Shown one piece after another: positions 26,901-55,039 of a stretch of DNA of 64,000 nt. The DNA is from Naegleria gruberi. Lineage: Eukaryota. The DNA lies in NCBI GenBank assembly GCA_000004985.1, contig GG738887.1. One strand, given 5' to 3'. How positions within the stretch are numbered: the first letter of the stretch is position 1; every line of letters begins with the position of its first letter. The position numbers and the translations under genes were made by a program. The notes below the pieces were generated by a model. That model was given only the letters and a program-made list of their open reading frames with translations. It was not told the origin of the DNA and ran no database searches.

Positions 26901-29279
26901 GACATGCATCAAAACTGACAAGAATAGAAAGACTGAGATTCTCAGTTTGGATTGGAATGGAGCATTGATGGCAGTTCTGAAGAAGGTTTCCTTCTTGTCA
27001 ATTCCTTGATTTTCGACACCTTCGAAATCCATCTCATTCCCATTGAATTGACTTTTTCCATTTAGGGCTGAACCACTTTCATCTCTTTCAGTACTAATAT
27101 CTTCATTATTGGTGGACATTTCCACATTGGATGAGGGCACAATCTTATTCTTGAATTTCTTTGCTTCGTAATATGATTGTGGATTGTGATGATTGACATT
27201 CTTTGATCTCGATTCTTCTTCTTCCATTGCAGCTGCTTCTTCAAACAATGAAGTAGATAGTTCCTTATCGAATTTGAATTCCTCAAGGTAGGACGCATAA
27301 AAACGAATCACTGTCTTATCGTGACTGTGAGCTTTGGTAAGATTGAGGAAATTCTGGTCACAGAATAGTGTTAGGACAGAAGCTCTGCTATTAATTTGTG
27401 AAAGTTTGGTTTCGTTTGGAATATCGTTCAACATTTCCTTCCAGAATGATTTATGAACAATTCGAAGCTCAGCAAGGGTTATTTCTAATTCTGTAATTGT
27501 GTTTCTTACTTCCATATTTGTCTTGGTTAGCTCGTTGAGTGTAATTTCAATTTCTTTTTGTTTTTCAGTGATAAGAACTCTCTTTAAAGTTTGATGACAA
27601 TGTTTAAGAGCCTTTGCCAGTAGATAATTTGCAAATTGAGATCTGTGATCATCTTGCCAAATGTAGTTGACCAAAACACTTGAAATGAGCAACATTTCAG
27701 TATTAAGGAAGGATTTCTGCTGAGAAATGGATTTCACAAAAGCAATAGCCATTAATGGATCACTGACAATAGTCACACCGTAATGATCGGGGGAGTGATG
27801 TTTCACATTTTGCCCAATTGAAAATTGTAAAAACAACATCAAGTGTCTTAGAGATAATTGTTCACAAACAATGAAAATGGGAACTGCCTCTCTTTCAATA
27901 ATGTTGTAAAGTGATAAATCTGCTCTGCTCTCAGTTATTTCACAGACACTAATCTTGGTTTTGAAAATATTTCTTATTTGTCTGCAAACAACAAGTGTGT
28001 AAATTTCCAAAGCAGTAAAAGCAAGAATGAAAAATAGAATTCCCAATCCAATACTCAATCCCATCATTCCAAGACCCAAATCACTCAACAGATTTACATT
28101 GACCAATGAGCTAATCAATACTCCAATACTAACTCCAAATCTTGCACAAACAATTCCAAAATAGAGTGAATTCATCATTCGATGATAGAATGGTAAACTG
28201 TAAATGACGAGAGGAATGTTGATAAAGCTCAAAATGAGATGAACAATCGCTCTCCCCATCATGTAATTCGGTGGAATGAAGAACATGATTAACAATTCCA
28301 ATCCTATCGTGCAAATGGTTGGTGCCAATATAAAGTTATCCTTCGTCACAAAAGGAATTCCAACATTGGGTGTATTGATTGGCAATAAAAACACAGAGAA
28401 ACTCCAACTCACAAATGTAATCATCATTCCAATCAAACTCATGACAATTAAAATAGTATTTGTTTTAGAATAACATTGAACTGATGGAAATCTTGACAAT
28501 CCAGAAACACTTGCTGTCTGATCTTCGACATTGATTTGAATATTTGGATTACAATCAACAAAACTGCTCATAATAAATAAGGCAACTGGTCCAATAAACG
28601 ATACTACTAATGAACAATACATCCCAACCTTGTCAAATATTTTGTAAATTCCTTCACATCTCTTCTTCATTCCAATAATCATCAAGATAATATTCACCAA
28701 TGAAATCAATGTAAATAGGACAGAAAGTGCAATTATTCCCTCATAAGGAATGGCATCTGTTGATAAAGTGAGTGGATAATTCAATACTCTAAATACCCAT
28801 CCTCCTTCAAATCCAAACGGTGAAGTATTATATTCATTATTTATGGTACTATTAGATGAAAGTATACTAGAATACTCCTGATGAGAAGTCAATGCAGGTA
28901 ACCACATTCCAATCCACAACATGTATAAAAACCATAACGATATAGCCAATCTAGCCAGTCGTATCTTCCACGGGACTGTTACAGGCAAACCTTCTACATA
29001 GCTGCCTTTGCTGTTGCTAAACCTTGTGAGGGTGTTCATCCTCATCTTGCTACATAAATACATCATTGATAGATATTCATTAAAGGTTTTGAATAAGGAG
29101 CTGGCAAAAGAGGCAGAAGTTATTGAAGAACCACCATCTGATGAAGAGGTGGAAATAGATGATCTTCTGCCTAATGTTGATTCCATTCTTTTCTTGTTGT
29201 TGAATAAATTATATTCATGCCAACAGCATTGGCATTGTAGTTTTTGATAGGTTTTGCCAGGAGAAGATGTGAACCACAT
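23964..29279 (-). CDS. Polytopic membrane PAS-domain class III adenylyl cyclase (single catalytic domain, homodimer type); apparently intronless
   Basis: Continuous 1786-codon minus-strand ORF. The ORF-track start at 29324 is TTG; the first in-frame ATGs are at 29279 (MWFTSS) and 29186 (MESTLGRRSS, A-rich context). There are two hydrophobic blocks (about 8 and about 5 predicted TM helices) separated by a roughly 400 aa cytosolic coiled-coil region. A PAS-like segment (GALLANENGDIILFNGPAQNMFGKSISDVLG...) follows. The cyclase homology domain carries all canonical residues: FFSDMVGFT and KTIGDAY (two metal Asp), K immediately before TIG and YDLWG (Lys/Asp, ATP specificity), and NTASRME (Asn/Arg). 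The C-terminal poly-Q tail ends SNNQ-TAA at 23964. Confidence 0.85.
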   Translation of the reverse strand: MWFTSSPGKTYQKLQCQCCWHEYNLFNNKKRMESTLGRRSSISTSSSDGGSSITSASFASSLFKTFNEYLSMMYLCSKMRMNTLTRFSNSKGSYVEGLPVTVPWKIRLARLAISLWFLYMLWIGMWLPALTSHQEYSSILSSNSTINNEYNTSPFGFEGGWVFRVLNYPLTLSTDAIPYEGIIALSVLFTLISLVNIILMIIGMKKRCEGIYKIFDKVGMYCSLVVSFIGPVALFIMSSFVDCNPNIQINVEDQTASVSGLSRFPSVQCYSKTNTILIVMSLIGMMITFVSWSFSVFLLPINTPNVGIPFVTKDNFILAPTICTIGLELLIMFFIPPNYMMGRAIVHLILSFINIPLVIYSLPFYHRMMNSLYFGIVCARFGVSIGVLISSLVNVNLLSDLGLGMMGLSIGLGILFFILAFTALEIYTLVVCRQIRNIFKTKISVCEITESRADLSLYNIIEREAVPIFIVCEQLSLRHLMLFLQFSIGQNVKHHSPDHYGVTIVSDPLMAIAFVKSISQQKSFLNTEMLLISSVLVNYIWQDDHRSQFANYLLAKALKHCHQTLKRVLITEKQKEIEITLNELTKTNMEVRNTITELEITLAELRIVHKSFWKEMLNDIPNETKLSQINSRASVLTLFCDQNFLNLTKAHSHDKTVIRFYASYLEEFKFDKELSTSLFEEAAAMEEEESRSKNVNHHNPQSYYEAKKFKNKIVPSSNVEMSTNNEDISTERDESGSALNGKSQFNGNEMDFEGVENQGIDKKETFFRTAINAPFQSKLRISVFLFLSVLMHVLLIVIFILSIVYNERVVSTPLVLQSCIPGSTPGALLRVARMNQILTEVYANEGQSWLKNSSRMYELNYFTSTFRNRYLEHKGYLETLISNSQSGKFTSNMYNDFTERASPILIPISTTDPKSIEFVNTFSKNVSMSEVSQEFLHHVEQFLNFGEKQYNETTKSYSFMYIYLNRRYLADNYLQFCKSFQESERANTHQLNIILLAYIFTSSSVMTMIYVIFILISRSEMTWFSKITSLYKKIPKDFVGIIYHKLEEKTKDDAKHLKKNPLLQPKAFSLILALLIVTVFMLSSGLIYYEISMNISTASSAIYNVDLLSVFLRTVHRVTIRLNELFIYLSLPSGKFINSPFLVSNNSQLQTMKTEIRQFIDLSATIYDQVIYGQDGITTPLVGKYSKLDKIITGLSTCTNSSIDYNWKSNGNKIIGQSNELLKDCYGLQKYMSTFTILAGQVSEKFFNPSYASTQSEEAFAELLTLFNMCDMVYDKFRDFLTTLVSLTSLPSTTISIVFLIFGITSMLILQYMIFISFQTYDHEITNMKAFLNYLSTEFIESNDGLKSFALYNSIGTNYLTGRKLKQSSATDQDSLKKLMSSMVDGALLANENGDIILFNGPAQNMFGKSISDVLGTNFMHLFDEHSGEKLSNILKTIKSEIDENVKHGDVIELECVRKNSTKFPAMVTIFVSRISGSSDKGKSNSMVVSCFMRDITPEKKQNSLLAEEKKNSENLLRNILPDAVASKLKSGETFIAERFSDITCFFSDMVGFTKMSSGMNPSELVLMLSSIVNGFDDLTDVYSLEKIKTIGDAYFCVGGLHNNPQSDHPERTLRFAIDTFQVIRNYNIEHPQNQLNIRVGINTGSVVAGVIGKKKFAYDLWGDTINTASRMESTSMAGRIQISRSTYQRVYDIGFEFEQRSVEVKGKGVCETYLLKDKHHAQTVVTEEEIIELQQLQQQQQERRPSIHPSTVSQHISFSDEQVTPHSNNQ

Positions 29280-29885
29280 GTGTTGTATGAAACATGTAAT
29301 ATTTCCAAACTTCGGCCAATCCAAGTAGATATGAGAAGTGATGATGTTTTTGGTTTTAGTACTTTAAAGACATTCCAGTAAGATTGAAATACTAAAGCGA
29401 TGATTCCTTAATGTAATAAATACAAAAGTAATTCGAATCACGATGAAGATTGTTGATCGAATCTATCCAAATGTTCTTGGCACGCCTAATATTTATCAAA
29501 ATGTCTACTTTGATAAACATCATAGTTTGATTGCTTTTAAAACAAATCATGCACATTACTAAATTATTACTGCACTTGTTAATAGGAAATTAGAGCCTTC
29601 CGTCGTTCATATGAACTATTTTTGTTACATTTGATTATGAATAATACTAATATTGCTCATGTCTCTACACTTGCCTCCTTCATTGTGATATTTTTTAAAT
29701 AATTAATATTAATAAATATTGAAACTTTAAAATTTTTTAACAAAAGATAAATTGTGGAAAGTAACGATTTTGATCAATCCCAACAAATTTGTTGCTGTCT
29801 CCGAAGCAAAAGAACAAATCATCACACAATATTGAAAGAACAGTAAATTTCAAGAGCGCCAAAATACAAAAGATTTTTAAAAAAT

Positions 29886-31053: not shown

Positions 31054-32553
31054 TTAATCCATTTCTGTAGTATTGATTTGAACATCTGATAAAGTTCCAT
31101 TATGTAAGGATCTAAGCAATTTAGTCTTAATAAGTTTTACATTTTTGGAAAGAAGAGGATATCTAAATACTTGCAATCTTTGGTTATTCCATTCAACTAC
31201 TAATAATTCCTGTCGTTTTTCATCAAGGGCGCAACCAGTTGGTTTGGTTAACTCGCTCTTTTCAATACCTGCCTCTCCAAATGAAGTAATAAATTGAAGT
31301 TTTGAATTAAAAATCTGAATTCTATCATTCATCGAATCACAAACGATAATATTGCCATTCGTTCTATCGATACAAAATCCTTCTTGACAAGCGAATTGTC
31401 CTGGTTGATTTCCATGACCATTTTCAATTTTTCTTATCAGAGAGCCATTCAACTTGGACAAGACAAGAATTCTGTGATTTTCACGGTCGGAAACTACCAA
31501 ATTTCCATCAAGATCAAAATCAATATCCTTTGGTCCATCGAACTGGGTGTCTCCACTTCCTTTTGATCCAAAATCTCTAAGAAAATCACCATTCTTTGAA
31601 AGGACTACAATTCTATGGTTATCAAAATCACATATATAAATATCTTCATTGGTTGTATCAATAACCAGACCTCTTGCCCAATTTAGATTTGGATAACTTT
31701 TCCAAATCAATTTAGATCCATCATATGAATACTTGTAAACATAATTGTCGTCACAAGTGAAAATAATACTATCATCAACCTCACTCACAACCAGACATCT
31801 AGGATAAGATGATAAACTAATATGAAATTTAAATTGCCTAGTGCCCAATTCAAACACTGCAATTCTTCTATTGTACGTGTCTGTGACATAGAAGATATTC
31901 CTTTCGTGATACAGAGTCACATCCAAAGGATATGCAAAGGATGAATCTTTCGAAGTCTCACTCGTACAATACAGCGTGTCAAATCCAAGCATTGGTTTTC
32001 TCTTTACTCCACAATTAATATTCATAGGAAAGCCGTTAACAAATTTCTTATTCTCTCCAATCACAACTTGACAACAAACTGCAACATTACAGTCATCAGC
32101 AAGTAAATCCTTAATTTTATCTGGAATAGTAATCATTATTGGTATTTCCTTTGATGCTACACTCCTAGTCACTCCATCAATTTCCAATTCACTAACATCA
32201 ACTTGTTGAAAGTATGATGAATATCGTTTTTCTGCAATTATGTTATTTCCACCATATTCTTCATCACCGGAAAGTCTTTCCAATGTTACAGAAATTACAA
32301 TTTCATCTTCTGGAAAGCTACTCGCCAATTGATCAAATTCATCATCAGATCGAGTTGTTCCATCTTGTTGCTGCTGTTCATTAATAAAATCCAATTCTAC
32401 AGTAAATTCAATATTACTTCCGCTCTTGTACTTTCGGTCCGAGGTTAGATTTTGCCATTCGATCACTCTTGGATAAATAAAAGATGATGCTGAAGAACTT
32501 TCGGAAGAAGAGATTGGGATGGCGTGGGAAATAATTTCCTCCCTTGATGACAT
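31054..32553 (-). CDS. NHL-repeat (six-bladed beta-propeller) protein, 499 aa, single exon
   Basis: Real ATG at 32553 in an AAAAATG context. The C-terminal two thirds contain repeated NHL signatures (YVTDTYNRRIAVFE, YICDFDNHRIVVLSKNGDFLRDFGSKGSGDTQFDGPKDIDFDLDGNLVVSDRENHRILVL, IIVCDSMNDRIQIFN, LLVVEWNNQRLQVF). The N-terminus is Ser-rich with a Q-rich stretch. Confidence 0.8.
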   Translation of the reverse strand: MSSREEIISHAIPISSSESSSASSFIYPRVIEWQNLTSDRKYKSGSNIEFTVELDFINEQQQQDGTTRSDDEFDQLASSFPEDEIVISVTLERLSGDEEYGGNNIIAEKRYSSYFQQVDVSELEIDGVTRSVASKEIPIMITIPDKIKDLLADDCNVAVCCQVVIGENKKFVNGFPMNINCGVKRKPMLGFDTLYCTSETSKDSSFAYPLDVTLYHERNIFYVTDTYNRRIAVFELGTRQFKFHISLSSYPRCLVVSEVDDSIIFTCDDNYVYKYSYDGSKLIWKSYPNLNWARGLVIDTTNEDIYICDFDNHRIVVLSKNGDFLRDFGSKGSGDTQFDGPKDIDFDLDGNLVVSDRENHRILVLSKLNGSLIRKIENGHGNQPGQFACQEGFCIDRTNGNIIVCDSMNDRIQIFNSKLQFITSFGEAGIEKSELTKPTGCALDEKRQELLVVEWNNQRLQVFRYPLLSKNVKLIKTKLLRSLHNGTLSDVQINTTEMD

Positions 32554-33989: not shown

Positions 33990-35368
33990 TTATGGTTGAA
34001 CATTCCAATCATTCTTTTCATCCCATTCTCTTACTCGAATTCTCTTTTCTTTTGTCAAGTTGGCTCCTTTCAATAGAACTGTATTAACCAAATTAGATTC
34101 CTGACTAAAGTCACGAGGTCCATAATTGCAGGTAATTGTGTATTGTGGCAATAAACCCATTCTAAGATAACATTCAGCCACAAATTCAGAACAGAATACA
34201 TTAGCATCATTGGATTGAGTATTTCTCTTAATGACACATTTCAATAATTCAGATTTTGAAGTTTCGTATTTCTTATCAATGGAAATCTTCAAATAATCAA
34301 CAAGTGTTGGGAATTGATCCACAATATTCTCATCCTTTGGTCTATTATCCATTGAAGGAATGTTCAATCTTCTCAAACAACACAAATCAGTTGGATCTCT
34401 TTCCAAATAATCCATAAACCACTTTCTCAATTCTACTAATTGAATTCCACCACCTTCCTTATTGTCCACAGTATCAGTTTCAGATTCTGCAACAAAAACA
34501 GTTGAAAATCTTGATGAAGCATCAACTTGAACCTTATACAATTCCAATAATTCTTTCGGTGGATTTCTAATAATAATCGACAAGTGAGACCAAGTTGATG
34601 AAAATCCCAATTGAATAGCTTTTGAGAAAGTTCCCTTTCCAGAATGCAACAAGACATCACCAGTTCTCAATTCATCATAAATATCCTCCAAATACTCTAC
34701 ACCAAACAAGTTATCCAATCGTTGAGATTCCTTTTCTGAAATATTTCCACTCAAAATTGATTTTAAACTTCTTCCTCTACTGGCGAAACCTCTTCCCTTC
34801 TCATTCTTGTATTCATTTAAAAAGTTGGTCAAGTCAATTTGTGGAATATTCTCAGAGAGTGAATCAACGAAACCATCATTAATTTGAAAGTTGAGAGGTT
34901 CAATTCGAATATGTAAACTTCCTTTTGGAACTCCTTGCAAGTTTAGCCACATTTCGAATGGTTTCTTCTCTTCCAATTTGAGAGTAGAAAGTGAAACTGC
35001 TATGAATCCCAATGAATCATCTCCTGTGAATTTGTCCTTATCATATAATTGACAAATTAGGACATATTGTTCTGGATTGTGATCGAGTGGAATTTCAAAA
35101 GTTTCATTCCAGACAGGATTTAATGAGTTGGAAATTACATGAGTCTTGAACTGTTCCTTCTTTTTACCTCCGAGCCAGGCAACACAGTATGGATCAGAAA
35201 CGTCACCTTTTTAGTGATTGTTAATTTTGACACCTGTCAAAACTTACCATTTTTACCAGAATCAGTGTTGATCAAATTTTTAGCTTCCAAGATGGTGAGT
35301 TTCATGTGGAAGGTTTTGAAAGAGCTGAAAGTCTTGTCAACTCCAAAGTGTTTTGGTGTGATTGGCAT
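33990..35368 (-). CDS. C2-domain protein with C-terminal LRAT/NlpC-P60-superfamily (His...Cys) domain, about 445 aa, 2 exons
   Basis: The ORF-track start (35012) is a TTG artefact; the frame continues upstream. Exon 1 is 35248-35368 (ATG at 35368 after an A8 run; MPITPKHFGVDKTFSSFKTFHMKLTILEAKNLINTDSGKN). Intron is 35207-35247 (GTAAGT...CACTAAAAAG, 41 bp, phase 1). Exon 2 is 33990-35206. The spliced N-terminus gives a textbook C2 domain (GDVSDPYCVAWLGGKKKEQFKTHVISNSLNPVWNETFEIPLDHNPEQYVLICQLYDKDKFTGDDSLG). The C-terminal region has TWSHLSIII (His) and NVFCSEFVAECY (Cys), resembling the H-box and NCEHF box of LRAT/PPPDE-like papain-fold domains. Confidence 0.72.
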
Positions 35369-35791: not shown

Positions 35792-38042
35792 ATGTCAAAA
35801 AAAATGTCATCAATTAAATTGATTACTGTCATTTGCTTTTTGTGCATGTTAAATGTTGTTTTTGCACAAATTCCAAACAACAAGGCTGTTATGGGAGGTA
35901 ACTTGGGAGGTATGTAGAATAAGCCAAATATTTAATTTACTTTCGAATAATAGGCTTAGGTAAGTTTCGTATTATTTTACATCGAGTTTCGAATATTTTC
36001 ACACAGCCGACTATTCTAATAATTTGGTTTTCATCGATGCCATGAGAACTGCTCGTTATGTAAGTGCTTTTATATATTTTTTTTAACATTCAAAGTGGGG
36101 TCAAGCAGATGCTCCATGGAACACTTTACCAGTTGACCAATACAATCAAGATTCGTATCCAGTTGGATATTCTGCTGGTACAGTTGTTTTCATTCAACCT
36201 GCAGGTACTGTCAATGGAACTTATTATTTTCAAGGTGATGGACAGTTGACAGTCGATTTGGTTGCTAGCTCAGATTGTGAATTGGTCAATTTCACATATT
36301 CAAATGGAAAGACAACTGGTTATATTGTAGTTGGTGATCAAGCTACTCAACTCATGTTAGGATTCACTCAACCAACAAACACATCTTTCCAAAACATTCG
36401 TCTAATTCGTCCAGGTTTCACCATTCAAGATGCTGACACTCTCATCTTTCTTCCAAGCTTTATTCAAGATATTAAGGATTTGAAATTGATTAGAATGATG
36501 GATTGGTGCTCTACGAATGCAAATCCAATTACAAAATGGAGTGAAAGAGCTAGATCAACAATTTCAACATTCTCAACAAGCAAAGGAATTTCATACGAAA
36601 CTATAATTGCTTTGGCAAATATGCATGATAAGGAAGTTTGGGTAAATATTCCAGCAATGGTCGATGAAGATTACATTTTACAAATGGCAAAGCTTTTTAA
36701 GGAAAAATTGAGTCCAAATCGAGTTTTTTATTTGGAATATTCGAATGAAATTTGGAATTCAGGTTTCGAACAAACAGATTGGAATTTTAATTATGCAGAA
36801 TATTTGGTAACTGTTGGGAATATGACTATTTTCAATTATGATCAGGTGAATAACAAGTATACTTGGGGATTTAGAAGAACTGGTTATGTGGCCTATCGTA
36901 TTTCTGAAATATTTGCATCTGTTTTTGGAGAAAGCAAACGAAACACTCAATTTAGAGTTGTTTTGGCTGGTCAAGGTGCCAATTCATATATTGTTAGTCA
37001 AGGTTTACAAATGATTGAGAAATTTGGAGCTCCTTCCAAATATCTCTATGCCATCGCCTCAGCTCCATATTTCCAAATTGACAATAATTATTCTGGAACC
37101 ATGTCCAAAGATGCTGTTCTAAATGAATTGGAATATCAAATGAATAGATCACCAGCTGTCTATGATTATGGTAATTACATTTGCATGGCCAAATTCTATG
37201 GCCTCAAACATATGGCTTACGAAGGTGGACCAGATACTTTCGGACCTTACAATATTCAATCTAAGAGATTGGCATCATTCGAACCAAGAATGAAACAGAT
37301 TACCATTGATTTTTTGAGAAATTGGTTCAGTTATGGATTTGATGCCTTCGTGTGGTATACTGTTAGCTATGGAGGTTATGATTCACAATATGGAACTTGG
37401 GGATGGGCTGAATATATTTCAGATTCGTATAAGCCAAAGAGAGAGGGAATTCTCTATATGGTCAATAATCCAAACGTTCCTTACAATACTACTGTATTTA
37501 AACTATTTGCAGGACCAGTCAATTCAATTTTAAGCACTCCTGCTGTCAAGCATCAATTGGCTGACTCTTCTTCAAGTGCTACTGTTCTTGCCTCAGCTCA
37601 ATTGGACTCTGTTTATTATTATCCAATGATTAATACTAGACGTGGTATTTATTCAGTCAGAATTGAAGCTGCCAATGTCTTGAATGGTGGAGGATATCTT
37701 GGAATTTATATGAATAATGTTAAATTAGGATCTGTTCTTTCGAATTCTGCTGTATATAATTTTACAATTCCAATTAATTCTGGAATTATTGAAAAGGGAC
37801 TCAATGTTGTTACAATGGTCATTGAAACAGACAGAGCTCTCAATATTAGAACTGTCAATGTCACTCTAATTCAAGAAGTTGCTGAGCCAGTTCCAACACC
37901 AACACCAATTCCAGCACTCATTTCCACAGTTAGCAATAATGATAATAGAACAATTACAATTTCCACCTCTTCAACTCTCACCATGAACGTAATGATTGCC
38001 TTATCTGCATTATTATTCATCACTTTATTCATCCAATTGTAA
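35792..38042 (+). CDS. Secreted glycoside-hydrolase-like protein (TIM-barrel clan GH-A-like, NE motif) with Ser/Thr/Pro linker and C-terminal hydrophobic (GPI-anchor-like) tail; 3 or 4 exons
   Basis: ATG at 35792 (a second ATG at 35804). The signal peptide is MSKKMSSIKLITVICFLCMLNVVFA. Exon 1 is 35792-35909 (phase 1). Intron is 35910-36006 (GTATGT...CACACAG); alternatively two introns (35910-35953 and 35960-36006) flank a 6-nt micro-exon GCTTAG. Exon 2 is 36007-36059. Intron is 36060-36095 (GTAAGT...CAAAG, 36 bp). Exon 3 is 36096-38042, in frame with the ORF-track ORF. LEYSNEIWN resembles the catalytic acid/base NE(P) motif of clan GH-A. The C-terminus is EPVPTPTPIPA...TISTSSTLT followed by MIALSALLFITLFIQL. 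Confidence 0.65.
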
Positions 38043-39492: not shown

Positions 39493-41051
39493 TTAGATAT
39501 TGCACTGATTTTTAAATTCATCTCCCATGAATTGGCAAGACAATGATAAAAACCATGCAGAAAATAATGACAGTGTCAATGGACATAATAAATAATGCCA
39601 CAACAAGAGCTCACAAACTTGTTCCTGTCCAAAATCATTGTTTAAACTGGAGAGTGATGTGAGTGACATGGCCATTGGCATTGAAAATTGGATGAGAATA
39701 ACGAGAATTAATAGAGGATCGTTGGCAGGCAAGATTTTCAAGTAAATTCCAACATAAACTAAACTAACTCCTATTAAAGGAAATATGATTAATTTGGTAA
39801 TTAGTGAAATTACAATTGCTAATGGATGAATTTTCTTAATTTTGAATATTTTCAAAATTCCAATCAGTGTCTGTTTGAATTTTTGCAATATTGCCTGAAT
39901 TCGGTTTTGATTAATTTGCCCGTTCATATTGGAAACTTCAACCGAATCGTTTTCTTCTTCATTCATCAAGGTAATTCCCAAATTTCCTCCCAAAATGATA
40001 AGAGCAGCAGGAGACACAGCTTGTGAAAACACTTTACAAATATTCTTCAATGAGGAAACAAACATTGGTGGATTCTCAATTAGAAATTCCTTAGCTGGTT
40101 TGATTAGTGCTATTACAATGGCAACAAAAATGGAAATCAAGGGAGGAGATAATAAGTTCGACAATAATTCTTTGAAATTTTCCCAATTGTTTTGAAAAAA
40201 AGTTTCAATCGTTCAATGATGGTTTGGTTGCGTTGAATTTGGTGATTTTCAGGTTGCATTTCAATGGCCAAATTTAGCTGAGAAATAGTTTCAGATTCCT
40301 CTATATGTTCTTTGATTTCAGGTATTTCTTCAAATATTTCATGTTCCAACTCATTAGAAAGTGAAATTTCATTCGAATCTTCTCTATTCTCCTCCATAAT
40401 TGACTGATTTACCAATAATTCTCTTTTCAATCGAGCAGCTCCATATCTAAATGCATTAAATCCAATCGTACAAAACACAAACTCTGTAGGAATGATAAAA
40501 ACCGAAAGTGTGGTCAATGCACTTTTGTGAGCTTCATCAAATGTCATTTTGTAAACTGGATTTGAAGATAAAGTTGAAACATTACACAATGCAACAATGT
40601 ACACCAATGGTAAGGACACAGAAGTATGACAAACCAATGTCAAAGTCAAAACAGTTCTAGAAATATCATCCAATCGATCCTTCCAAAACCATTTCAAAAA
40701 CAACAACTTTCCCAACACAATTCCCAACACTTCCAGAATGACACTGTAAAGAAAGACCATATAAATCTTTTGGAATACTTGCAAGGAAAAGCTTGTGGTT
40801 AAATTAATGAAAAACATGCAAGGAATAAAGAGATTGAACCACAACTTGGAAAGGAATCGAATTCTGTCACTATTCAAAATTTTCACTGGTTTGAATTTGG
40901 CCAAAATGAATCCGATGGAACATTCCAGAATGACTTCAATGGTAGAGCTCAAGCTGGTGAGAAATAGCACGATCAATACAGACATGGACATATTCGATCC
41001 TTCTCCTGATGATTGATTTGTGGAGTAAAGTTGTGGAAGGTTTAGGGACAT
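39493..41051 (-). CDS. Auxin-efflux-carrier (AEC/Mem_trans) family membrane transporter; reading frame interrupted by a 1-nt frameshift (or sequencing error) at an A7 run 40195-40201
   Basis: Two abutting same-strand ORFs, 40137-41051 and 39493-40164. The ATG at 41051 has a poly-A context. The N-terminal half has 5 TM helices (ILECSIGFILAKF...), then a hydrophilic Glu-rich loop. The C-terminal half has about 5 TM helices with a PAALIILGGNLG-type motif. Adding or removing one A/T in the homopolymer at 40195-40201 fuses the frames as ...IIERLKLFFQNNWENFKELLSNLLSPPLISIF.... No GTAAGT donor is available to explain the break by splicing. Confidence 0.7.
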
Positions 41052-45094: not shown

Positions 45095-46093
45095 CTAATG
45101 AGTTTCTTCAATTTTAATAACTCTTGGCATTTCAATACCATCCTGTTGCACAGATTGTTGTTGAGTAGGACAATTGCAACTTCCTGGATTTGTTGGATTA
45201 GTCGGATTAGTTGGATTTGTATTCGAATTCATGTACACAACTTGCAAATCAGGAACATAATTCTTCACATAATTAATCCAATAAGTAGTATTTGTATAAA
45301 CACCAAAAGCTCCTTGTCTTCCACATCCTTGAGGTCCATACGAAACGAGGCCAATTAAACCCATCGTATAAGAGTTGCCACTTTGACGAATCCAGTGGAG
45401 AGGGCCACCACTATCTCCTTGACAACTATTGATTCTATTTCCTTCACCTACACATAATTGATATGGAGATTCCATTCCCAATCCTTGTTGATTACAGACA
45501 GATGACTGTTGAAGTGGCATGTAAGCTTTTTGAGCTTTTGAAGGTAAATCATTGGAAGAATCTGAAGTTCTACCCCATCCAGTGAGTGTTACGAGTGTTT
45601 TGAATGGGATTTGACCACCTTCAATGCCAATTCTTTGAACTCTGTTTTGGGAAGCAGTGCCGAGTGGTAAGTCACTTGTCAATTCGAGCATGGCAATGTC
45701 ATTTCTGATGTATTGAGAATTGTAGTTTGGATGGACGATCTTTCTAGCTACTTTGCTAATGACACACTTTGAGGAAGGATTGGAACAATCGATATCTTGA
45801 TTGGCGACACCTGCCAAAACTCTAACCTTTGACACATCCATTCCATCAACTGAAAGACAGTGAGCAGCAGTGAGAATCCATCTTGAAGCAATAACACTAC
45901 CTCCACAGAAGTGTTGATACTTGACTCCATCTCTGGAATATTGTAAAGAAACTAAATGAGGAAATTGATTGTCATAATCAATGTCAGTACCACCTGCCAC
46001 ACTGATTCCTCTCTTGTTTAGTTCGGTTTCCTTGGAAATGACGATACATGCTAGGAGAGCACAGAAAATGATTGAGAAAATTAGTTTGTTCAT
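45095..46093 (-). CDS. Secreted S1-family (chymotrypsin-fold) serine protease, 332 aa
   Basis: ATG at 46093. The signal peptide is MNKLIFSIIFCALLACIVIS. The catalytic triad motifs are TAAHC (His), NDIAMLEL (Asp) and GDSGGPL (Ser), with conserved disulfide Cys. The residue six before the catalytic Ser is Asn (NSCQGDSGGP), not the Asp of trypsin. The C-terminus has (TNP)4 repeats and a tail. Confidence 0.85.
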   Translation of the reverse strand: MNKLIFSIIFCALLACIVISKETELNKRGISVAGGTDIDYDNQFPHLVSLQYSRDGVKYQHFCGGSVIASRWILTAAHCLSVDGMDVSKVRVLAGVANQDIDCSNPSSKCVISKVARKIVHPNYNSQYIRNDIAMLELTSDLPLGTASQNRVQRIGIEGGQIPFKTLVTLTGWGRTSDSSNDLPSKAQKAYMPLQQSSVCNQQGLGMESPYQLCVGEGNRINSCQGDSGGPLHWIRQSGNSYTMGLIGLVSYGPQGCGRQGAFGVYTNTTYWINYVKNYVPDLQVVYMNSNTNPTNPTNPTNPGSCNCPTQQQSVQQDGIEMPRVIKIEETH

Positions 46094-47515: not shown

Positions 47516-48241
47516 ATGAATCAAAGTAAGATTAGTAAGCAACATAAAATGAAATGCAATAAGGGAACATTTCACATTATTAATCTCAATCAGTGGTCAA
47601 TCACTGAAGACAGAGCTATGAAAGATTCCATTATTAAGGTCCACACTAATTCCACAATGTTTGGTAAGCATTATCAGAAGAGGGTTAAGGGCTTGACTGC
47701 TTGGGCACTTCCATATGCACATCTTAAGGATGTGTCATTTCCAAACAAGTTGGATGCACTTGATGTGAAAGATGTTGATTCGTTCCAACAACAGTTGTTG
47801 AAATACACCATTGAGAGGATTGAAAGAAAATTGGTTTTCAGAATTCAAGATGGAATCTCCAAAGTAGTTGATGGAAGACAGCATAATTTTGTTGGTGACA
47901 TGTCGTTTACCCAATTCCAATTGTTTTTGAAGTATTTGGTTTCGAATTGTATGGGTGATTATTCAACTGAAGGTGATTATGTTAAAGATCATGGTGACAT
48001 TACTTCATTTCTCATTCATAGCGTCGAATTCAAAACCATTCCTGGAAGAACAATGCCTCCACTTTCCACTTCTGATTGGAGTTTTCTTAAAGGGATAGAT
48101 AAGCAAACGGGAGAATGTAAGCGAGGATTTGTGAGCCAGTTGAAGTTTGTATATTCCGAATATACAGGTCTAGTTCGAGCTGATATGATATACTGGACTC
48201 AAAGATACTGTGATAAATCAAATTCATGGATTTTTTGCTAA
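47516..48241 (+). CDS. Hypothetical protein, 241 aa
   Basis: ATG at 47516 after an A-rich leader; stop TAA at 48239-48241. Its 3' end overlaps the convergent minus-strand gene by 18 nt. No recognised domain. Confidence 0.45.
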   Translation: MNQSKISKQHKMKCNKGTFHIINLNQWSITEDRAMKDSIIKVHTNSTMFGKHYQKRVKGLTAWALPYAHLKDVSFPNKLDALDVKDVDSFQQQLLKYTIERIERKLVFRIQDGISKVVDGRQHNFVGDMSFTQFQLFLKYLVSNCMGDYSTEGDYVKDHGDITSFLIHSVEFKTIPGRTMPPLSTSDWSFLKGIDKQTGECKRGFVSQLKFVYSEYTGLVRADMIYWTQRYCDKSNSWIFC

Positions 48242-50767
48242 TAAACTTTCAGATTGTTGCAATTCTTCATCAAAGATTGATTTTGATTCTTGAAAATTAT
48301 GTCTAGCCTTCATAACTTGTTTAAGATTAATCCACAACTTTGGATTTTTGAATAAAAACCCCTCAGTAATATGTTGTACAATAAGATCCCATCTCGAATC
48401 AGAGCCCAACCCTCCATTCCTTCCCCTTACTAAATTATCCGTTGCATGATACTTTCCTAATCCTTCATTAATAAAATTCATTGCATTCTTGAGAGAATCA
48501 ATTTGTCGCCAAACATCCATCAAATGATATTTCATTTGATGAAGATAATGAGGACTTTTTTCAAAAACTTCCACATAAAAAGAGCAAAATATTGATACAC
48601 CTCTTTGAATTTGGATTCCCTTTGATGGATTTTTCAATACTTGTTTCACTTGTTCATCATTATAATGCAGAAAGCCTTGAACTTCTTGAAAGTTTCCCCA
48701 GAGTTTGAATATGTTACCATCCTTTGTAAATGGGTTGAGTTCATTGCCAATACCTAGCCTTTCATGAATTAATTGAATTATCTCTCTATCATTAACATTT
48801 TTACCATTAATATCAAAAAGTGGATCCTCTTGTTCATCATTGTCCTCATTTAGAAAATCATTTTCTAAGAACTCATCATCTTGAGATGAACAATGATGTT
48901 GAGAATCTATATTCATATCATTTTCATTACTTGAACAATTTTCATCATCTTGCATGACATTTTCATTATTCGAGAAAGTGGTGTTATTTTCACCACTTTG
49001 CAAATTATTGAAGAAGGAGTTGAATGGTGATTCATTACTTGGTGTATAGGTAACATTATTAGGTGTTTGATTTAGAGAATCAATAGTATTATTCACGAAT
49101 GTTAGAACTCTCTCCCTGTTAATTGTGTTGGCTGATTGTTCAAATAATATCTCATCAAATTTGTCTTTTAAAGCCTCCAGGAAATATGGATAAACTTGTG
49201 TAATAGGTTGCACATATGAGGCATCAATAAAGCTAAAAGTTTTTTTACTCTTAGTGGAATCACCAGTATTGTTATTACCATTCTCTTTTGATGTTGATAG
49301 TTTCAAATAAATTGTTTGTCCACAATGCTTTTTGACTAATTTGGGTAATATTTCAACCAAAAATTCCAAAAGTCTATCATCATTAAGGCAGGTATTGTTT
49401 AACATATGTTCTAGTGTTCTCTCATCACAATGTAACAGATCAAAAATATGTTGATAATATCTCAACTTGAAATGGTTATATAATTCAATATCATAATTAG
49501 GGAAAAATGGTGTCAAACTTATTTTGTCAATAAGTGATACCTTATTAAGCTTCGTAGTACAATTACATCTCCAACATATGGGTAATTGATCGTAAAATGT
49601 TCTGTCATTTCCTAATAAATATGCATATCTGGTGGATATGTTATGTTGTTCACATAATTCTTGTTCTGCAAGAGATAATATATTAGATTCACTTGTAGTA
49701 GTGGTATTGTTAATGGTATCAATTAATTTACTTCTCATCTTTCTAGGAATCATGTTGATGATGTATTTTGTTTTCAATTTAGTATCAAGTGAAGTATCAT
49801 TAATAATGGAATTCATGATAATGAGTGTGCTCACTAAATTAGAACTTTGATTTTTTGATTTAAAGGATGGATCAAGTATTTCCTTCATTGCTAATAAATC
49901 AGAAGAGCAATAATTAGCAGGATTATTGTGCATAATATGTTGAATTTCAGGAATAAATTTTGCCAACACCTCCTTATCTTGATCATCTTGGGATTTAAAT
50001 AATTCCTTTAATTTAATAGGAGAAAGTAGCATCACTAGGATATCCCTTTTCAAGGAACATCCGTTTCTAGATAGTGTGATGATTCCTTTAGAATTTTCCA
50101 CACGTCGATCATCCCACCATAATTTGAAGAAATCTTTGTTGTATAAATCTTGTCCAGGTTCAACACATATTTGAAGAAGTTTTAAAGCAAGACAAGGAGA
50201 AATTGCTGTAATGTTTGTTGAACAAAATGGTGTTATTTTCAAGGAATATTTGATGAATGGAATTATTGTAGCATGATATTGATTGAACTTGTAGGTTGAT
50301 GGTAATTTTTCTGCAATGGATTTTGTATTATTTATTTTGTCTTTGAATCGACCATATCCATTCACTGACAAACTTGATTCCCTCCAAGCTCTAACAACTT
50401 CTGCTGCAACATCATTCTCTTCCGACACTGGTTGTTCTAACCCAACTTCTCCCATACAATACTCCAAAAATGTTTTTCCTATTCGTGATTGAGTTAAATA
50501 AACAAACATGATTTCAAACAAATCCATATTTAAAGTCTTCAAATAATTTCCAGCAAGAACAGTAAGAAACCTTTCGGATTGTAGTGGTGAATAGCTGTTG
50601 TGTTGATGAATACGATCCGTACATGTAAACTTCATATTGCTCTCAACATGTGCTGCTCGCGTCCACAGTTTTGAATGTAACTCTGGGGGAAAGTATTTAA
50701 TTGGAGGGTGTATGACAGGCCTTTCACCTCCCTTGATGGCTTCTACAGTTACAACCTCAAACAACAT
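48224..50767 (-). CDS. Large hypothetical protein, 847 aa, single exon
   Basis: Real ATG at 50767; stop TGA at 48224-48226. The continuous 2.5 kb ORF has an Asn/Asp/Glu-rich low-complexity region in the C-terminal third. No motif could be assigned by eye. Confidence 0.65.
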   Translation of the reverse strand: MLFEVVTVEAIKGGERPVIHPPIKYFPPELHSKLWTRAAHVESNMKFTCTDRIHQHNSYSPLQSERFLTVLAGNYLKTLNMDLFEIMFVYLTQSRIGKTFLEYCMGEVGLEQPVSEENDVAAEVVRAWRESSLSVNGYGRFKDKINNTKSIAEKLPSTYKFNQYHATIIPFIKYSLKITPFCSTNITAISPCLALKLLQICVEPGQDLYNKDFFKLWWDDRRVENSKGIITLSRNGCSLKRDILVMLLSPIKLKELFKSQDDQDKEVLAKFIPEIQHIMHNNPANYCSSDLLAMKEILDPSFKSKNQSSNLVSTLIIMNSIINDTSLDTKLKTKYIINMIPRKMRSKLIDTINNTTTTSESNILSLAEQELCEQHNISTRYAYLLGNDRTFYDQLPICWRCNCTTKLNKVSLIDKISLTPFFPNYDIELYNHFKLRYYQHIFDLLHCDERTLEHMLNNTCLNDDRLLEFLVEILPKLVKKHCGQTIYLKLSTSKENGNNNTGDSTKSKKTFSFIDASYVQPITQVYPYFLEALKDKFDEILFEQSANTINRERVLTFVNNTIDSLNQTPNNVTYTPSNESPFNSFFNNLQSGENNTTFSNNENVMQDDENCSSNENDMNIDSQHHCSSQDDEFLENDFLNEDNDEQEDPLFDINGKNVNDREIIQLIHERLGIGNELNPFTKDGNIFKLWGNFQEVQGFLHYNDEQVKQVLKNPSKGIQIQRGVSIFCSFYVEVFEKSPHYLHQMKYHLMDVWRQIDSLKNAMNFINEGLGKYHATDNLVRGRNGGLGSDSRWDLIVQHITEGFLFKNPKLWINLKQVMKARHNFQESKSIFDEELQQSESLLAKNP

Positions 50768-51256
50768 TAGTCTTAATTCGTATTTTTTTTTAGATGTTGT
50801 ATGATGAATTACTAAATCCCTAATACACCTTCCTTTTTGCTTAAAATTTTTATCTCAAAACGCGGCATTGAGGAAATTGATAGTGAAGGAGCTGGCAGAC
50901 AAGTAATGAGATTCGAAATGTTGTTGGAATGGTTGTTATTTGTTTGAGGTTTTGTGAGGTGTAATCAATTTCCTAATCATTGAAAAATACGAAACTAGAT
51001 GCAAGATTATTAATTACTGGTGATGCAATCTTTGAAGTCAAGTGATGTTTCGCCAATTTTACCTCCTTTATTCTTGAAATCTCCTCTCAAGACATTAAGA
51101 AAGTCATCTCGATGGCCACTTTCGTGTTTATCTCTAAAGTTTCGTACAAATTGAACACACTTTCAAAACACATCATGTCAAGTACAACAACTCAATTTTT
51201 ATAATTAAGACATCTCTTTGAATCTCTTATTGGAGAAACTACAACACCAAAAAAAA

Positions 51257-53735
51257 ATGAAAGTAAAACCAATTACCACATCAGACGAATCAGACGAAAT
51301 ACATTCGAATATCTCAGAGCAACTCTTACAAGCCACCAAAAAAAAAAGACCCTACGAAGGATTACTTCCTCTCAATCTATTCATTGTATCAACAATTTCC
51401 CTACTCATCCTCGCAGGTTGTCTATTCGTTTGGATTGCTTCCTTCTCAGTGACCAGCAATTCCATTCAAAATTTGAATGCCAAATTTATTGATGAATCAG
51501 GTCAGAAAATTAAGAATAGTTTACATGGATATATTGATCCAATTGCAAAACTTACAAAAATGATGGCTAGAGATTGGAATTCACAAGCTGTCAATTTAAC
51601 TCAATTAAGAGAATACTTGTTTCCTAAATTTGTGGAATTTGGTGCCAATGGGTGTGGATATTTCTTTAATGATACGTATTCGTATAGATATACCTATACG
51701 GTGAGTGGTACTGCAAGTAATCCAATAACTGGTAAGTTTGTTCTACTTTCGAATAGTTTCATACTAAACACTTTTGATAGTTTATGCACAACAACCGTAT
51801 GGATATGTTGGAACCATAAGAGATTTAGTCAATAACAATACTGGAGAAGTAACCAAGTACAATTATCAAGTCGATACAAAACCAATTATCATGACCACTC
51901 AAGATTTTTGGATCTATCTCAATAATTCATATGTCAATTATGGATTGGATGGAGTGGTTGGTGAACCGTACAGATCTATCGGTTCTACAATGGCCATTTA
52001 TTATGCAAAATGGATTTACGATCAACAATTGTACAAGGCAACCAAAACTAAACGTATTATTGGACTAGCTAAAGTCAACCTAGCTCTGGATGCAATTGTT
52101 ACCTTTTTATCTCAAATTGAATTATTAGGAAAAGGATATGTTCTAGTGACACTCAATTCTGGAACTGTCATTGGTGGTTCCATAAACACAACTGTCAATG
52201 ATGGGTTGACCAGTGTACATGTATTTGATTTGGAAACAAGAGGAGCAGGAAAACTAATCAAGAGGTTCTATGAGGTGAATGGCAACACTTTCAGTACATT
52301 TAAAAGTACCAATACGAAACTGAGTAGTGAAGGAGCATCATACATTGTCACTCCAATGAAATTCTCATATGAAAATTTGGAGTGGAATATTTTCTTTGTT
52401 TTATACGATTCTGATGTGAATGAACCAATGATTTTGAGTTCTTCCATAAGTATTGGTGTAACGGTGGTGATTGTCATTGTTGGTATTTGTTCTAGTTTGA
52501 TAACTGGTATGATTGTTTCAAAACCAATGAAATTTTTAGAGAAACAATTCGAAAGTATTAGAATTATGGATTTGGAAGCTGTAGTTCTATCAAACAAGTC
52601 AGTGTTCAAGGAAGTTGACTCAATATTTGGAAATTTGTACGACACTGTCATGTGGCTGAAAGAAATTAAGGCCTTTATCCCAGAATATGTCTTTGAACAA
52701 ATCAAACAAAACGAAACTATTAGTATCAAGAGTGAAACTGCACAAAATGCATCAGCAGCAACCAAAAAGAAACCAGAAAAGGAAGCTGATAACTTTTCTC
52801 ATTCATCTTCCTCTCTTGCCAACAAGTCAAATTCTCCAACTGAGAGTTCAGGAAATAATTCCTCAGTTAAGAGCTCATTTAAAACAGCGCAGAATTTATT
52901 TAAAATGGGCTATAGTAAGAGGAATTGTGTAGTTGTCCATGTCAAATTGGAAGGATTGATTGGTGGAGGTCATGAATTCATTTCTACATTTTTCAAAGAT
53001 TTCATTTCAGCAATTGCACCTGTCATTAAGGTCAATCAGGCCACTCTGCAAGTAATGAACTGTGATGAATTCCAGCTATCAATGGCTTCCAACAAGATTG
53101 AGGCTAAAGTTCTGGATAAGGCCATTGATTGTGCATTAAAGATTATTAAGGCCTCTGGAAAGGATGTATGTCCAAGAATTGGAATCTGTTACGGACCTTG
53201 TCATATTGGAAATATTGGAACAAACACATCAAGATACTATTCAGTTGTTGGAAGAGTTCCAGAGACTGCTAAATTATATGCAGAATTGGCTGGAAAGTAC
53301 AATGTTAAAATAATTACTGACACAACTCAATTGCCACTAGATTCGTATATCAATAGACCATTGGATAGAGTAGAAGTGAAATCTGACATTGTAACCATTT
53401 ACCAAATCATTGACAAGAAGAATACTGAAAACGATGAGTGGCTCTATGAATTAGAAAATTCAAAGAAGAATAACAAGTACCAAGATTTTAATGAAATCTT
53501 TCAATTATTCCAACCTTCCTATTGGAATGATTTCAAACAGGATCCTTTCCCTGTCATTGATAAATGCAGAGGAATATTGGAGAAATTCAAGAAGGAAGAA
53601 TTCAATGAGCATAGTGATTTGTCTTGTGATGAATTGTTGGCTCTTTTCAGTAACTTGCCAAACAGTGTTCAGGTGAATGAATTGAGTACTCGACTTACAA
53701 GTTATTCGAAAAAACTCTATGTAGAACTGAAATAA
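51257..53735 (+). CDS. Receptor-type membrane protein with degenerate class III cyclase-homology domain (pseudo-cyclase); 2 exons
   Basis: The first ATG is at 51257 (A9 context; the ORF-track 51218 start is TTG). Exon 1 is 51257-51731. Intron is 51732-51780 (GTAAGT...TTTTGATAG, 49 bp, contains ATACTAAAC, phase 1). Exon 2 is 51781-53735. The topology is a short N-terminus, TM1 (LLPLNLFIVSTISLLILAGCLFVWIASF), an extracytoplasmic domain of about 320 aa, TM2 (ILSSSISIGVTVVIVIVGICSSLITGMIV), a linker, a Ser-rich region, then a cyclase-like domain. There, FADIVGFT is replaced by HVKLEGL (first metal Asp lost) and KTIGDAYM by VMNCDEFQL. RIGICYGPCHIGNIG is kept. VNTASRME is replaced by VPETAKLYAE (Asn and Arg lost). 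Confidence 0.72.
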
Positions 53736-54061: not shown

Positions 54062-55039
54062 TCAACAGACCAAGTCATTGAAACATGCAATTTCTTTCTT
54101 GTGATATTCAACAGATGTTGGTGTAATACTTTCATTCGAGTAACTAGTCAAATTGCCAACATCCTTCAGCTCTACTGTAGATGTTGCATAATTAAAAACA
54201 ATAAGGTTGTGAATGCTCTGCTCTGTCTTATTCTTTTGACAATAAACATTCAATTGTTCTGTGCAATTATCAATTTGAATCCACAATTCTAGTTCTCTAC
54301 CAATATTGAACTCTTCTCTGAGCACGGAAAGTACACACTTCTTTTTCTTTTTGATATCTTTCAAATTAATGTAATGAGACTCCTTATCATCAGAGAGTAT
54401 ACAATTAACACACACCGTTCCAACCAAACTAAACGTAGTATCAAACTTTGTTCCTCTTCCATCTGATGACTTGGTCAAAACATTGAATTTGAAAGTGAAA
54501 GACTTGGTGGTTGTCCCACTCACCTTTAGATACGTATTTCGTCCATTCAATCTCTTGAAACTGTTTCCATCTTGAGCAAGGGTGGTGGATGACCCAATGG
54601 AGGAAGTTCTGTTCGAGTCTACTACTGTCAACGTACCTCTGGAAGAAGGTGAGATAGGATCATCCATAAAGTCATTATTTGTTTCCAAACCAGAACTGGA
54701 ACTGGAAACAAACGCACCATATTGTTCTTCTTCTACTCTCAAAAGCTCTTCAGCACCCTGGGCTGTAAAATCAGCAGTAATATTATCCATCATGCCAGGT
54801 GGTAATTCATTGAGGAAAGTATTACAAATTCCACCTTTAAATATTTCTTGTTGGTAGGCAGAGAATGATGGTGAAATGTCTTCTTCTACTTCTTCCTCGA
54901 CAATGGAGCATCTCGGAAATAGTAGTGGTGGAGAATGAGTTGTTTCATTCTTGTTCGTGCAAAGTAAATTCGCGACACTTTCATCATCATCATGATGGAT
55001 AGTATTATTAGTACTACATTCACTTGTTGAATTATTCAT
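54062..55039 (-). CDS. Hypothetical protein, about 325 aa (Ser/Thr-rich, acidic N-terminal half)
   Basis: The ORF-track start at 55090 is TTG with an in-frame TAG just upstream; the first ATG is at 55039 (MNNSTSE). No domain recognised. Confidence 0.5.
   Translation of the reverse strand: MNNSTSECSTNNTIHHDDDESVANLLCTNKNETTHSPPLLFPRCSIVEEEVEEDISPSFSAYQQEIFKGGICNTFLNELPPGMMDNITADFTAQGAEELLRVEEEQYGAFVSSSSSGLETNNDFMDDPISPSSRGTLTVVDSNRTSSIGSSTTLAQDGNSFKRLNGRNTYLKVSGTTTKSFTFKFNVLTKSSDGRGTKFDTTFSLVGTVCVNCILSDDKESHYINLKDIKKKKKCVLSVLREEFNIGRELELWIQIDNCTEQLNVYCQKNKTEQSIHNLIVFNYATSTVELKDVGNLTSYSNESITPTSVEYHKKEIACFNDLVC

What the first reader, a model, noticed from the sequence alone, without database searches (positions are those of the whole stretch)
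39493..41051. Auxin-efflux-carrier-family transporter broken by a +/-1 frameshift at an A7 homopolymer (40195-40201)
Both halves of a canonical AEC/PIN-like transporter (5 TM, loop, 5 TM) are present on the same strand but in frames offset by one. One extra or missing A/T in the run reads through as ...LKLFFQNNWENFKELLSNLLSPPLISIF.... No GT-AG intron can be drawn across the break. Either this is an assembly or homopolymer error in a functional gene, or a very young pseudogene, or a programmed frameshift.
Basis: seen in the sequence. Interest (0 to 1): 0.5.

Follow-up and report, generated by a model that had tools for sequence, protein, structure and literature searches.

The report
Frameshifted membrane transporter gene in Naegleria
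A Naegleria gruberi membrane-transporter gene that is intact in every other respect is split into two reading frames because a run of T's is one base short, which is either a very recent inactivating mutation or a sequencing slip, and shows no sign of being programmed.

Summary
On the minus strand, ORF 41051..40137 (304 aa) and the open frame 40212..39493 match the two complementary halves of Pfam Mem_trans (the AEC family). They are offset by -1. The only A/T run of 7 or more in the gene (40195-40201) lies inside the 76-nt stretch where the shift must occur.

The window is a subtelomeric end of a Naegleria gruberi NEG-M scaffold. The public annotation carries only the truncated 304-aa product (XP_002674022.1).

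T8, T5, or A5 in the adjacent A4 run each give one clean 519-aa ORF. Five homologues are uninterrupted through the junction, four of them verified at the DNA level as single intronless ORFs. None has a T-run at this site.

The part downstream of the break keeps family-invariant residues as well as the intact paralogue does (67/73 vs 66/73), and dN/dS is well below 1. The lesion is therefore very young or not real.

Programmed -1 frameshifting is unlikely. There is no downstream RNA structure (z = +2.1), no conservation, and the in-phase U_UUU_UUC arises automatically from T8 to T7. No plausible intron exists.

I could not separate a real null allele or young pseudogene (about 0.45) from a consensus error (about 0.40), because no independent copy of the locus was reachable. 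This is an ordinary finding, useful mainly as an annotation correction.

The parts
40137..41051 (-). N-terminal ORF (frame 0), 304 aa, ATG at 41051..41049, ending at a premature TGA (40139..40137). It is identical to the annotated N. gruberi protein XP_002674022.1 / NAEGRDRAFT_71014. It carries TM1-5 and the acidic loop.
   Evidence: Pfam Mem_trans profile positions 5-183, 43.7 bits
39493..40212 (-). C-terminal open frame (-1 relative to the first), carrying TM6-10 and ending at TAA 39495..39493. The ...CNI C-terminus is shared with the paralogue P0006. It is not annotated as a protein in the collections searched.
   Evidence: Pfam Mem_trans profile positions 195-342 of 343, 46.1 bits
40195..40201 (-). 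T7 run on the coding strand (A7 on +), reading CTT TTT TTC in frame 0. This is the most likely site of the one-base shortfall. T8 gives ...LKLFFQNNWENFKELLSNLLSPPL..., the same length as the paralogue's LKLYFYNNLENIKELL.
40137..40212 (-). Stretch in which both frames are open, so the frame change must occur here. It also contains the A4 run (40190-40193), whose extension to A5 would equally restore the frame.

Best explanation
This is a single-exon Naegleria gruberi gene for a 519-aa, 10-TM AEC/Mem_trans-family transporter. Its coding T-run is one base short of the length that keeps the frame (T7 instead of T8). As written, translation ends 18 codons later at TGA and gives a 304-aa half-protein that lacks TM6-10, which I infer to be non-functional. 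I take the lesion to be a real and very recent replication-slippage deletion in a coding homopolymer. That would make it a null allele or newborn pseudogene of a redundant, subtelomeric family member in the heterozygous laboratory strain NEG-M. Shown here: the break, its position, the intactness of everything else, and the contiguity of the homologues. Inferred: that the missing base is real in the DNA and not a consensus error, and that the truncated product is inactive.
For: Repairing one base gives a single 519-aa ORF with no other defect. The alignment with the paralogue-like locus L001 shows exactly one missing nucleotide, in the codon after CTT TTT. Five homologues are contiguous through the junction; four of them (N. 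lovaniensis, one Logan assembly, two metagenome contigs) were verified at the DNA level as uninterrupted intronless ORFs. The half downstream of the break keeps 67/73 family-invariant residues against 66/73 for the intact paralogue, and there is no significant rate acceleration. dN/dS against L001 is about 0.18 for the N half and 0.31 for the C half. The disruption is therefore very recent. Several points favour a real variant. The assembly is Sanger-based (PMC9928731 Table 1), a chemistry not especially prone to 7-versus-8 homopolymer miscounts. The site is mid-contig, more than 16 kb from either gap. The locus lies about 23 kb from a (TTTGGG)72 telomere array. The gene has paralogues in the same genome, P0006 at 70% and P0007 at 43% identity in the alignment. 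Heterozygosity is reported for N. gruberi (PMC9928731).
Against: Nothing in the sequence distinguishes a real T7 from a miscalled T8. The complete absence of any further decay is exactly what a consensus error would also produce. The assembly is a draft with gaps in this very window. A second family member, P0006, also has a truncated public model, which could point to assembly or annotation problems and not biology. No independent read, contig or transcript of this locus could be found.
Confidence: 0.45

Rival explanations
1. Consensus or base-calling error in the 2010 draft assembly. On this reading the real genome has T8 (or A5) and encodes a normal, functional 519-aa transporter, and the 304-aa public protein is an annotation artefact.
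For: A single-base repair yields a flawless ORF. Conservation of the downstream half cannot be told apart from that of the intact paralogue. dN/dS is below 1 in both halves. The break coincides with one of the very few homopolymers of 7 or more in coding sequence. The scaffold is draft quality, with N gaps of 23.9 kb and 1.2 kb in the window. Another family member also has a truncated model.
Against: Sanger chemistry resolves 7 versus 8 bases well at normal coverage. The site is mid-contig. The other 18 or so long ORFs in about 38 kb show no comparable break; the only other split ORF pair is explained by a genuine intron.
Confidence: 0.4
2. Recoding. Either programmed -1 ribosomal frameshifting on U_UUU_UUC, or transcriptional slippage on the T7/A7 run, produces some full-length transporter from the T7 template.
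For: In frame 0 the run reads C-UU UUU UUC, a canonical in-phase X_XXY_YYZ heptamer. A -1 slip gives exactly LKLFFQNNWEN..., which aligns without a gap to the homologues.
Against: There is no stimulatory structure. The 70 nt downstream fold at only -3 kcal/mol and all 200 shuffles fold at least as well (z = +2.08); the 120-nt stretch gives z = +0.92. Homologues have no T-run and need no frameshift, so nothing is conserved. The in-phase heptamer arises automatically when an in-frame CTT TTT TTT loses one T. There are 19 such in-phase heptamers in 8,280 codons of unbroken ORFs in this window. A full-text search found no paper that mentions both Naegleria and programmed ribosomal frameshifting. 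From general knowledge, seven bases is below the run length at which RNA polymerase slippage becomes appreciable.
Confidence: 0.04
3. An unrecognised intron or a functional split gene. On this reading the frame is restored by splicing, or the two halves are expressed as separate polypeptides that assemble.
For: Frame-compatible GT..AG pairs exist (278 within the 15-1200 nt range scanned). Naegleria genes do contain short introns; the window has one at 51732-51780.
Against: The shortest candidates (53 and 68 nt, from GTCGAA at 40162) would delete the invariant LSPPL motif and TM6. All others remove hundreds of bases of conserved TM sequence. None has GTAAGT or a CTAAC-like branch site, as the genuine intron does. 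Four homologues checked at the DNA level are intronless and colinear across the site. The first ATG in the downstream frame lies after TM6, so a separately translated C half would be incomplete.
Confidence: 0.02

Closest known systems
AEC family / Pfam Mem_trans PF03547 (TC 2.A.69): plant PIN and PILS, fungal and bacterial 'auxin efflux carrier' homologues
   Same: Both halves score above the Pfam gathering threshold and cover complementary parts of the profile. The layout is 5 TM, a hydrophilic loop, then 5 TM. One source names the N. lovaniensis homologue P0003 'Auxin efflux carrier'.
   Different: The frame is broken between the loop and TM6. No substrate is known for any heterolobosean member. 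There is no significant sequence match to any solved structure, even with a profile, and no NCBIfam match. The gene is therefore only a distant relative of the characterised PINs.
Naegleria paralogues and homologues: N. gruberi XP_002669201.1 (P0006) and P0007, N. lovaniensis C9374_013128 (P0003)
   Same: Identity in the alignment is 70%, 43% and 55% respectively, with the same architecture. P0003 and the P0006-like contig L001 are single-exon genes, and the P0006 C-terminus ends ...CNI as here.
   Different: These are contiguous through the junction and have no T-run at the homologous site. No synteny was detected with the fetched loci.
Homopolymer-slippage frameshift alleles and unitary young pseudogenes
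   Same: There is a single one-base length change in a mononucleotide run, and the gene lies in a subtelomeric region of multigene families.
   Different: None of the secondary decay expected of an established pseudogene is present, and the lesion itself is not verified by independent reads.
Canonical -1 programmed ribosomal frameshift sites (for example retroviral gag-pol U_UUU_UUA)
   Same: There is an in-phase X_XXY_YYZ heptamer, and the downstream frame is -1.
   Different: There is no downstream stem-loop or pseudoknot and no conservation in relatives.

Membership tests
AEC / Mem_trans (PF03547) | Significant match to the family profile over its whole length | tested here: met
   The N ORF scores 43.7 bits on profile positions 5-183. 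The C frame scores 46.1 bits on positions 195-342 of 343. The cutoff is 25.7.
AEC / Mem_trans (PF03547) | Ten TM helices arranged as 5 + 5 around a central hydrophilic loop | tested here: met
   A Kyte-Doolittle scan of the repaired protein gives about 5 hydrophobic segments at residues 18-201, a polar acidic loop at 202-295, and about 5 segments at 296-505. This is approximate, as no dedicated TM predictor was available.
AEC / Mem_trans (PF03547) | PIN-like three-dimensional fold | tested here: inconclusive
   The AlphaFold2 model of the intact homologue P0002, built from an 8-row alignment, has mean pLDDT 49.8 and is too poor for a fold search. A profile search against PDB sequences found nothing at E <= 0.01.
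AEC / Mem_trans (PF03547) | Transport activity | not testable with these tools
   This needs heterologous expression and transport assays.
Programmed -1 ribosomal frameshift site | In-phase slippery heptamer X_XXY_YYZ | tested here: met
   U_UUU_UUC is in phase at 40201-40194. However, it arises automatically from T8 to T7, and 19 such heptamers occur in 8,280 codons of unbroken ORFs.
Programmed -1 ribosomal frameshift site | Stable stimulatory RNA structure a few nucleotides downstream | tested here: not met
   The MFE is -3 kcal/mol for 70 nt (z = +2.08; all 200 shuffles fold at least as well) and -12.8 kcal/mol for 120 nt (z = +0.92). Pseudoknots were not explicitly modelled.
Programmed -1 ribosomal frameshift site | Frameshift requirement and site conserved in orthologues or paralogues | tested here: not met
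   All homologues are in one frame, and none has a run of 6 or more T at the site.
Spliceosomal intron | GT..AG of the right phase whose removal keeps the conserved protein colinear with homologues | tested here: not met
   Every frame-restoring pair deletes conserved sequence. The genuine intron at 51732-51780 served as a positive control.
Pseudogene | Disabling lesion relative to functional relatives | tested here: met
   There is a one-base shortfall, followed by a premature TGA 18 codons later. This holds for the assembly as written.
Pseudogene | Signs of relaxed constraint (further lesions, dN/dS near 1, loss of invariant residues) | tested here: not met
   There is no second lesion. Invariant residues are kept at 62/70 and 67/73. 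dN/dS is about 0.2-0.3. If this is a pseudogene, it is newborn.
Pseudogene | Lesion verified in independent reads or isolates | not testable with these tools
   No other copy of the locus exists in the protein or contig collections.

The most novel reading that the evidence does not exclude
The T7 is real on all haplotypes, and Naegleria makes full-length transporter from it by -1 ribosomal slippage on U_UUU_UUC, or by polymerase stuttering on the run. This would be structure-independent recoding of a cellular membrane-protein gene in a heterolobosean, possibly setting the ratio of truncated to full-length product.
Probability: 0.03. Interest if true: 0.6.

Novelty: new member of a known kind. 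Interest (0 to 1): 0.12.

Why it matters
The main value is as an annotation correction. The public N. gruberi protein XP_002674022.1 / NAEGRDRAFT_71014 (304 aa) is the front half of a 519-aa AEC-family transporter, and the back half (39493-40212) is not annotated as a protein in the collections searched. Comparative counts of transporter families or gene presence in Naegleria would miscount this locus.

If the T7 is real, the locus is a small example of homopolymer-driven gene loss in a subtelomeric paralogue of a long-cultured laboratory strain. It opens no larger question unless recoding were demonstrated, and the evidence here argues against that.

Tried and rejected
- **Independent copies of the locus.**
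  - Exact look-ups of P0001, two candidate C-terminal ORFs and two repaired 519-aa versions found only the NCBI 304-aa entry.
  - Two metagenome scans, one with the protein and one with the alignment, returned no relatives.
  - The genome-contig collection holds only bacteria and archaea, so it was not used.
- **Intron rescue.** An exhaustive GT..AG scan produced only candidates that delete conserved sequence, so this was rejected.
- **PRF stimulator.** RNA folds of 70 and 120 nt downstream are weaker than shuffled controls, so this was rejected.
- **Alternative genetic code.** I considered this at first because of the TTTGGG telomere and the AT-richness, which suggested a ciliate. I dropped it once the organism was identified as N. 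gruberi, with long standard-code ORFs throughout the window.
- **Structure-based family confirmation.** A homologue model came out at pLDDT about 50, so no fold search was run. PDB sequence and NCBIfam searches were empty.
- **Synteny with homologue loci.** No flanking ORF matched, so positional orthology could not be established.
- **Literature.** There is no paper on this locus tag and none that mentions both Naegleria and programmed ribosomal frameshifting. The 2010 genome paper is not held in the library.

Full report
**What is there**

The window is mostly gap at its left end, with N at 1-23941. A second N run lies at 61725-62971. The window ends in 72 copies of TTTGGG at 63570-64000. The real sequence is about 33% GC.

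The gene in question lies on the minus strand. Frame 0 runs from the ATG at 41051 to a TGA at 40139-40137 and encodes 304 aa. The -1 frame is open from 40212 to the TAA at 39495-39493. Pfam Mem_trans (PF03547, the AEC family) matches the first ORF on profile positions 5-183 (43.7 bits). It matches the second on positions 195-342 of 343 (46.1 bits). Both are above the 25.7-bit cutoff.

Hydropathy of the joined protein gives about five hydrophobic segments, a polar acidic loop of roughly 95 residues, then about five more segments. The break falls about ten residues before TM6. The two frames are simultaneously open only between 40212 and 40137, and the T7 run (A7 on the + strand, 40195-40201) lies inside that 76-nt stretch. 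A/T runs of seven or more are rare in coding sequence here, with four in 25.5 kb of long ORFs. The coincidence of the break with the run is therefore unlikely to be chance.

**Identity of the organism and the locus**

A database search with the joined protein returned a 100% match to the 304-aa N-terminal ORF. That entry is 'predicted protein [Naegleria gruberi]', XP_002674022.1 / EFC41278.1 / NAEGRDRAFT_71014, on a 508,457-nt scaffold. The public annotation therefore carries the truncated product. Neither two candidate C-terminal ORFs nor two repaired full-length proteins exist in the 15-billion-protein collection. The terminal TTTGGG array matches the candidate telomere repeat reported for N. 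gruberi (PMC3622300). The gene thus sits about 23 kb from a chromosome end.

**Comparison with relatives**

Six homologues were found, with these alignment identities to the repaired protein:

- an N. gruberi paralogue, P0006 (70%)
- P0005, a near-identical copy of that paralogue from an ENA metagenome (69%)
- N. lovaniensis P0003 (55%)
- a Logan-assembly protein, P0004 (54%)
- a JGI metagenome protein, P0002 (54%)
- a distant N. gruberi paralogue, P0007 (43%)

Four of them could be fetched as DNA (L001-L004). Each is a single uninterrupted ORF whose length equals three times the number of codons plus the stop, so each is intronless. All homologues that reach the junction align straight through it.

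At the nucleotide level the paralogue-like L001 reads TTG AAA CTC TAT TTC TAT AAT AAT TTG GAA AAT. The window reads TTG AAA CTT TTT TT- CAA AAC AAT TGG GAA AAT, which is exactly one base short. None of the homologues has a T-run at this site. Changing the run to T8 or T5, or the adjacent A4 to A5, gives one 519-aa ORF with no other defect. T6 and T9 do not.

**How old is the lesion?**

I took the alignment columns that are invariant in four full-length homologues. The window copy keeps 62 of 70 such residues upstream of the break and 67 of 73 downstream. The intact paralogue keeps 64 of 70 and 66 of 73. In all eight comparisons the changes unique to the window lineage slightly outnumber those unique to the paralogue, for example 22 against 15 and 10 against 8, but the excess is not significant.

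Nei-Gojobori dN/dS against L001 is about 0.18 for the N half and about 0.31 for the first 115 codons after the break. Against the more distant loci dS is saturated and dN is 0.27-0.33 per site. A 239-codon open frame in 33%-GC DNA would not survive long without selection. The downstream half was therefore under normal constraint until very recently, or it still is.

**Tests of the alternatives**

- **Intron.** The scan found 278 frame-restoring GT..AG pairs within the 15-1200 nt range.
  - The only short ones (53 and 68 nt, donor GTCGAA at 40162) would delete the invariant LSPPL motif and TM6. All others delete conserved TM helices.
  - The same window holds a genuine intron at 51732-51780. 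It is 49 nt long and reads GTAAGT...ACTAAAC...TAG, and removing it fuses two overlapping ORFs into an 822-aa protein. Nothing comparable exists at the break.
- **Programmed -1 frameshifting.** CTT TTT TTC is an in-phase U_UUU_UUC heptamer, but three points count against it.
  - The 70 nt downstream fold at only -3 kcal/mol, and all 200 shuffles fold at least as well (z = +2.08). The 120-nt stretch gives z = +0.92.
  - The site is not conserved in homologues.
  - An in-frame CTT TTT TTT that loses one T gives this heptamer automatically. Nineteen in-phase heptamers of this kind also occur in 8,280 codons of unbroken ORFs in the window.
- **Literature.** No paper in the library mentions both Naegleria and programmed ribosomal frameshifting.

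**Real mutation or sequencing error?**

This could not be settled, because I could reach no independent reads, contigs or transcripts.

In favour of a real variant:

- The NEG-M assembly is Sanger-based (PMC9928731 Table 1).
- The site is mid-contig, more than 16 kb from either gap.
- The locus is subtelomeric and lies among multigene families, including two cyclase-like genes.
- Paralogues exist in the same genome.
- Heterozygosity is reported for the species.
- A T8 coding run is a slippage hotspot (general knowledge).

In favour of an error:

- The gene shows no other blemish at all.
- The assembly is a draft.
- The paralogue P0006 also has a truncated public model (351 aa, starting at about residue 170). 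Its near-identical metagenome copy has an uninterrupted N-terminus.

I put a real young null allele or pseudogene at about 0.45, a consensus error at about 0.40, recoding at about 0.04 and an intron or split gene at about 0.02.

**Comparison with known systems, and verdict**

The protein is a member of the AEC/Mem_trans family by profile match and topology. Fold-level confirmation was inconclusive: the AF2 model of a homologue reached pLDDT of only about 50, and there was no PDB or NCBIfam sequence match. The break is an ordinary single-base homopolymer frameshift.

The finding is confirmed as an observation. The practical result is an annotation correction for NAEGRDRAFT_71014. Interest is low.

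Noticed in passing
window 63570-64000: About 72 tandem TTTGGG units run to the end of the window, with a few degenerate units near 63560-63600 and 63890-63930. This matches the candidate N. gruberi telomere repeat reported in PMC3622300, so the window is a chromosome or scaffold end.
   Followed up: partly
window 1-23941 and 61725-62971: There are two runs of N, 23.9 kb and 1.2 kb. Only about 38 kb of the window is real sequence, and the ORFs listed at 61697-63022 are artefacts of the N run.
   Followed up: yes
window 51218-53735 (+), intron 51732-51780: Two overlapping ORFs are joined by a 49-nt intron (GTAAGT...ACTAAAC...TAG) into an 822-aa protein with a weak adenylate/guanylate cyclase domain. 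I used it as a positive control for intron signals. A9 and A10 runs at 51249-51257 and 51338-51347 lie in its putative 5' part, which has a TTG 'start' and may be UTR.
   Followed up: partly
window 23964-29324 (-): An ORF of more than 1,786 aa carries TPR, PAS and adenylate/guanylate cyclase catalytic domains (1.3e-56). At its low-coordinate end it stops about 20 nt from the 23.9-kb gap.
   Followed up: no
window 58654-58933: Coding tandem repeats of 9, 27 and 69 nt and a K-rich repeat of 27 or 36 nt lie inside ORF 58376-59140. Several overlapping stop-free frames on both strands are a side effect of the low complexity.
   Followed up: no
N. gruberi paralogue P0006 (XP_002669201.1) versus L001:565-1755: The public model of the closest N. 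gruberi paralogue starts only at about residue 170 (351 aa). The near-identical ENA metagenome contig L001 has an uninterrupted N-terminus. This is a second truncated model in a three-member family, and I could not fetch its scaffold to see why.
   Followed up: partly
window 45095-46093 (-), 31054-32553 (-), 33990-35012 (-): The neighbouring genes are a trypsin-like serine protease (1.1e-41), an NHL-repeat beta-propeller protein, and a weak, just sub-threshold match to the C92 permuted-papain amidase family (26.6 bits against a cutoff of 27). All appear as intact single ORFs. Several other long ORFs (36246-38042, 48224-50767, 54062-55090, 56687-58243) have no Pfam match.
   Followed up: no
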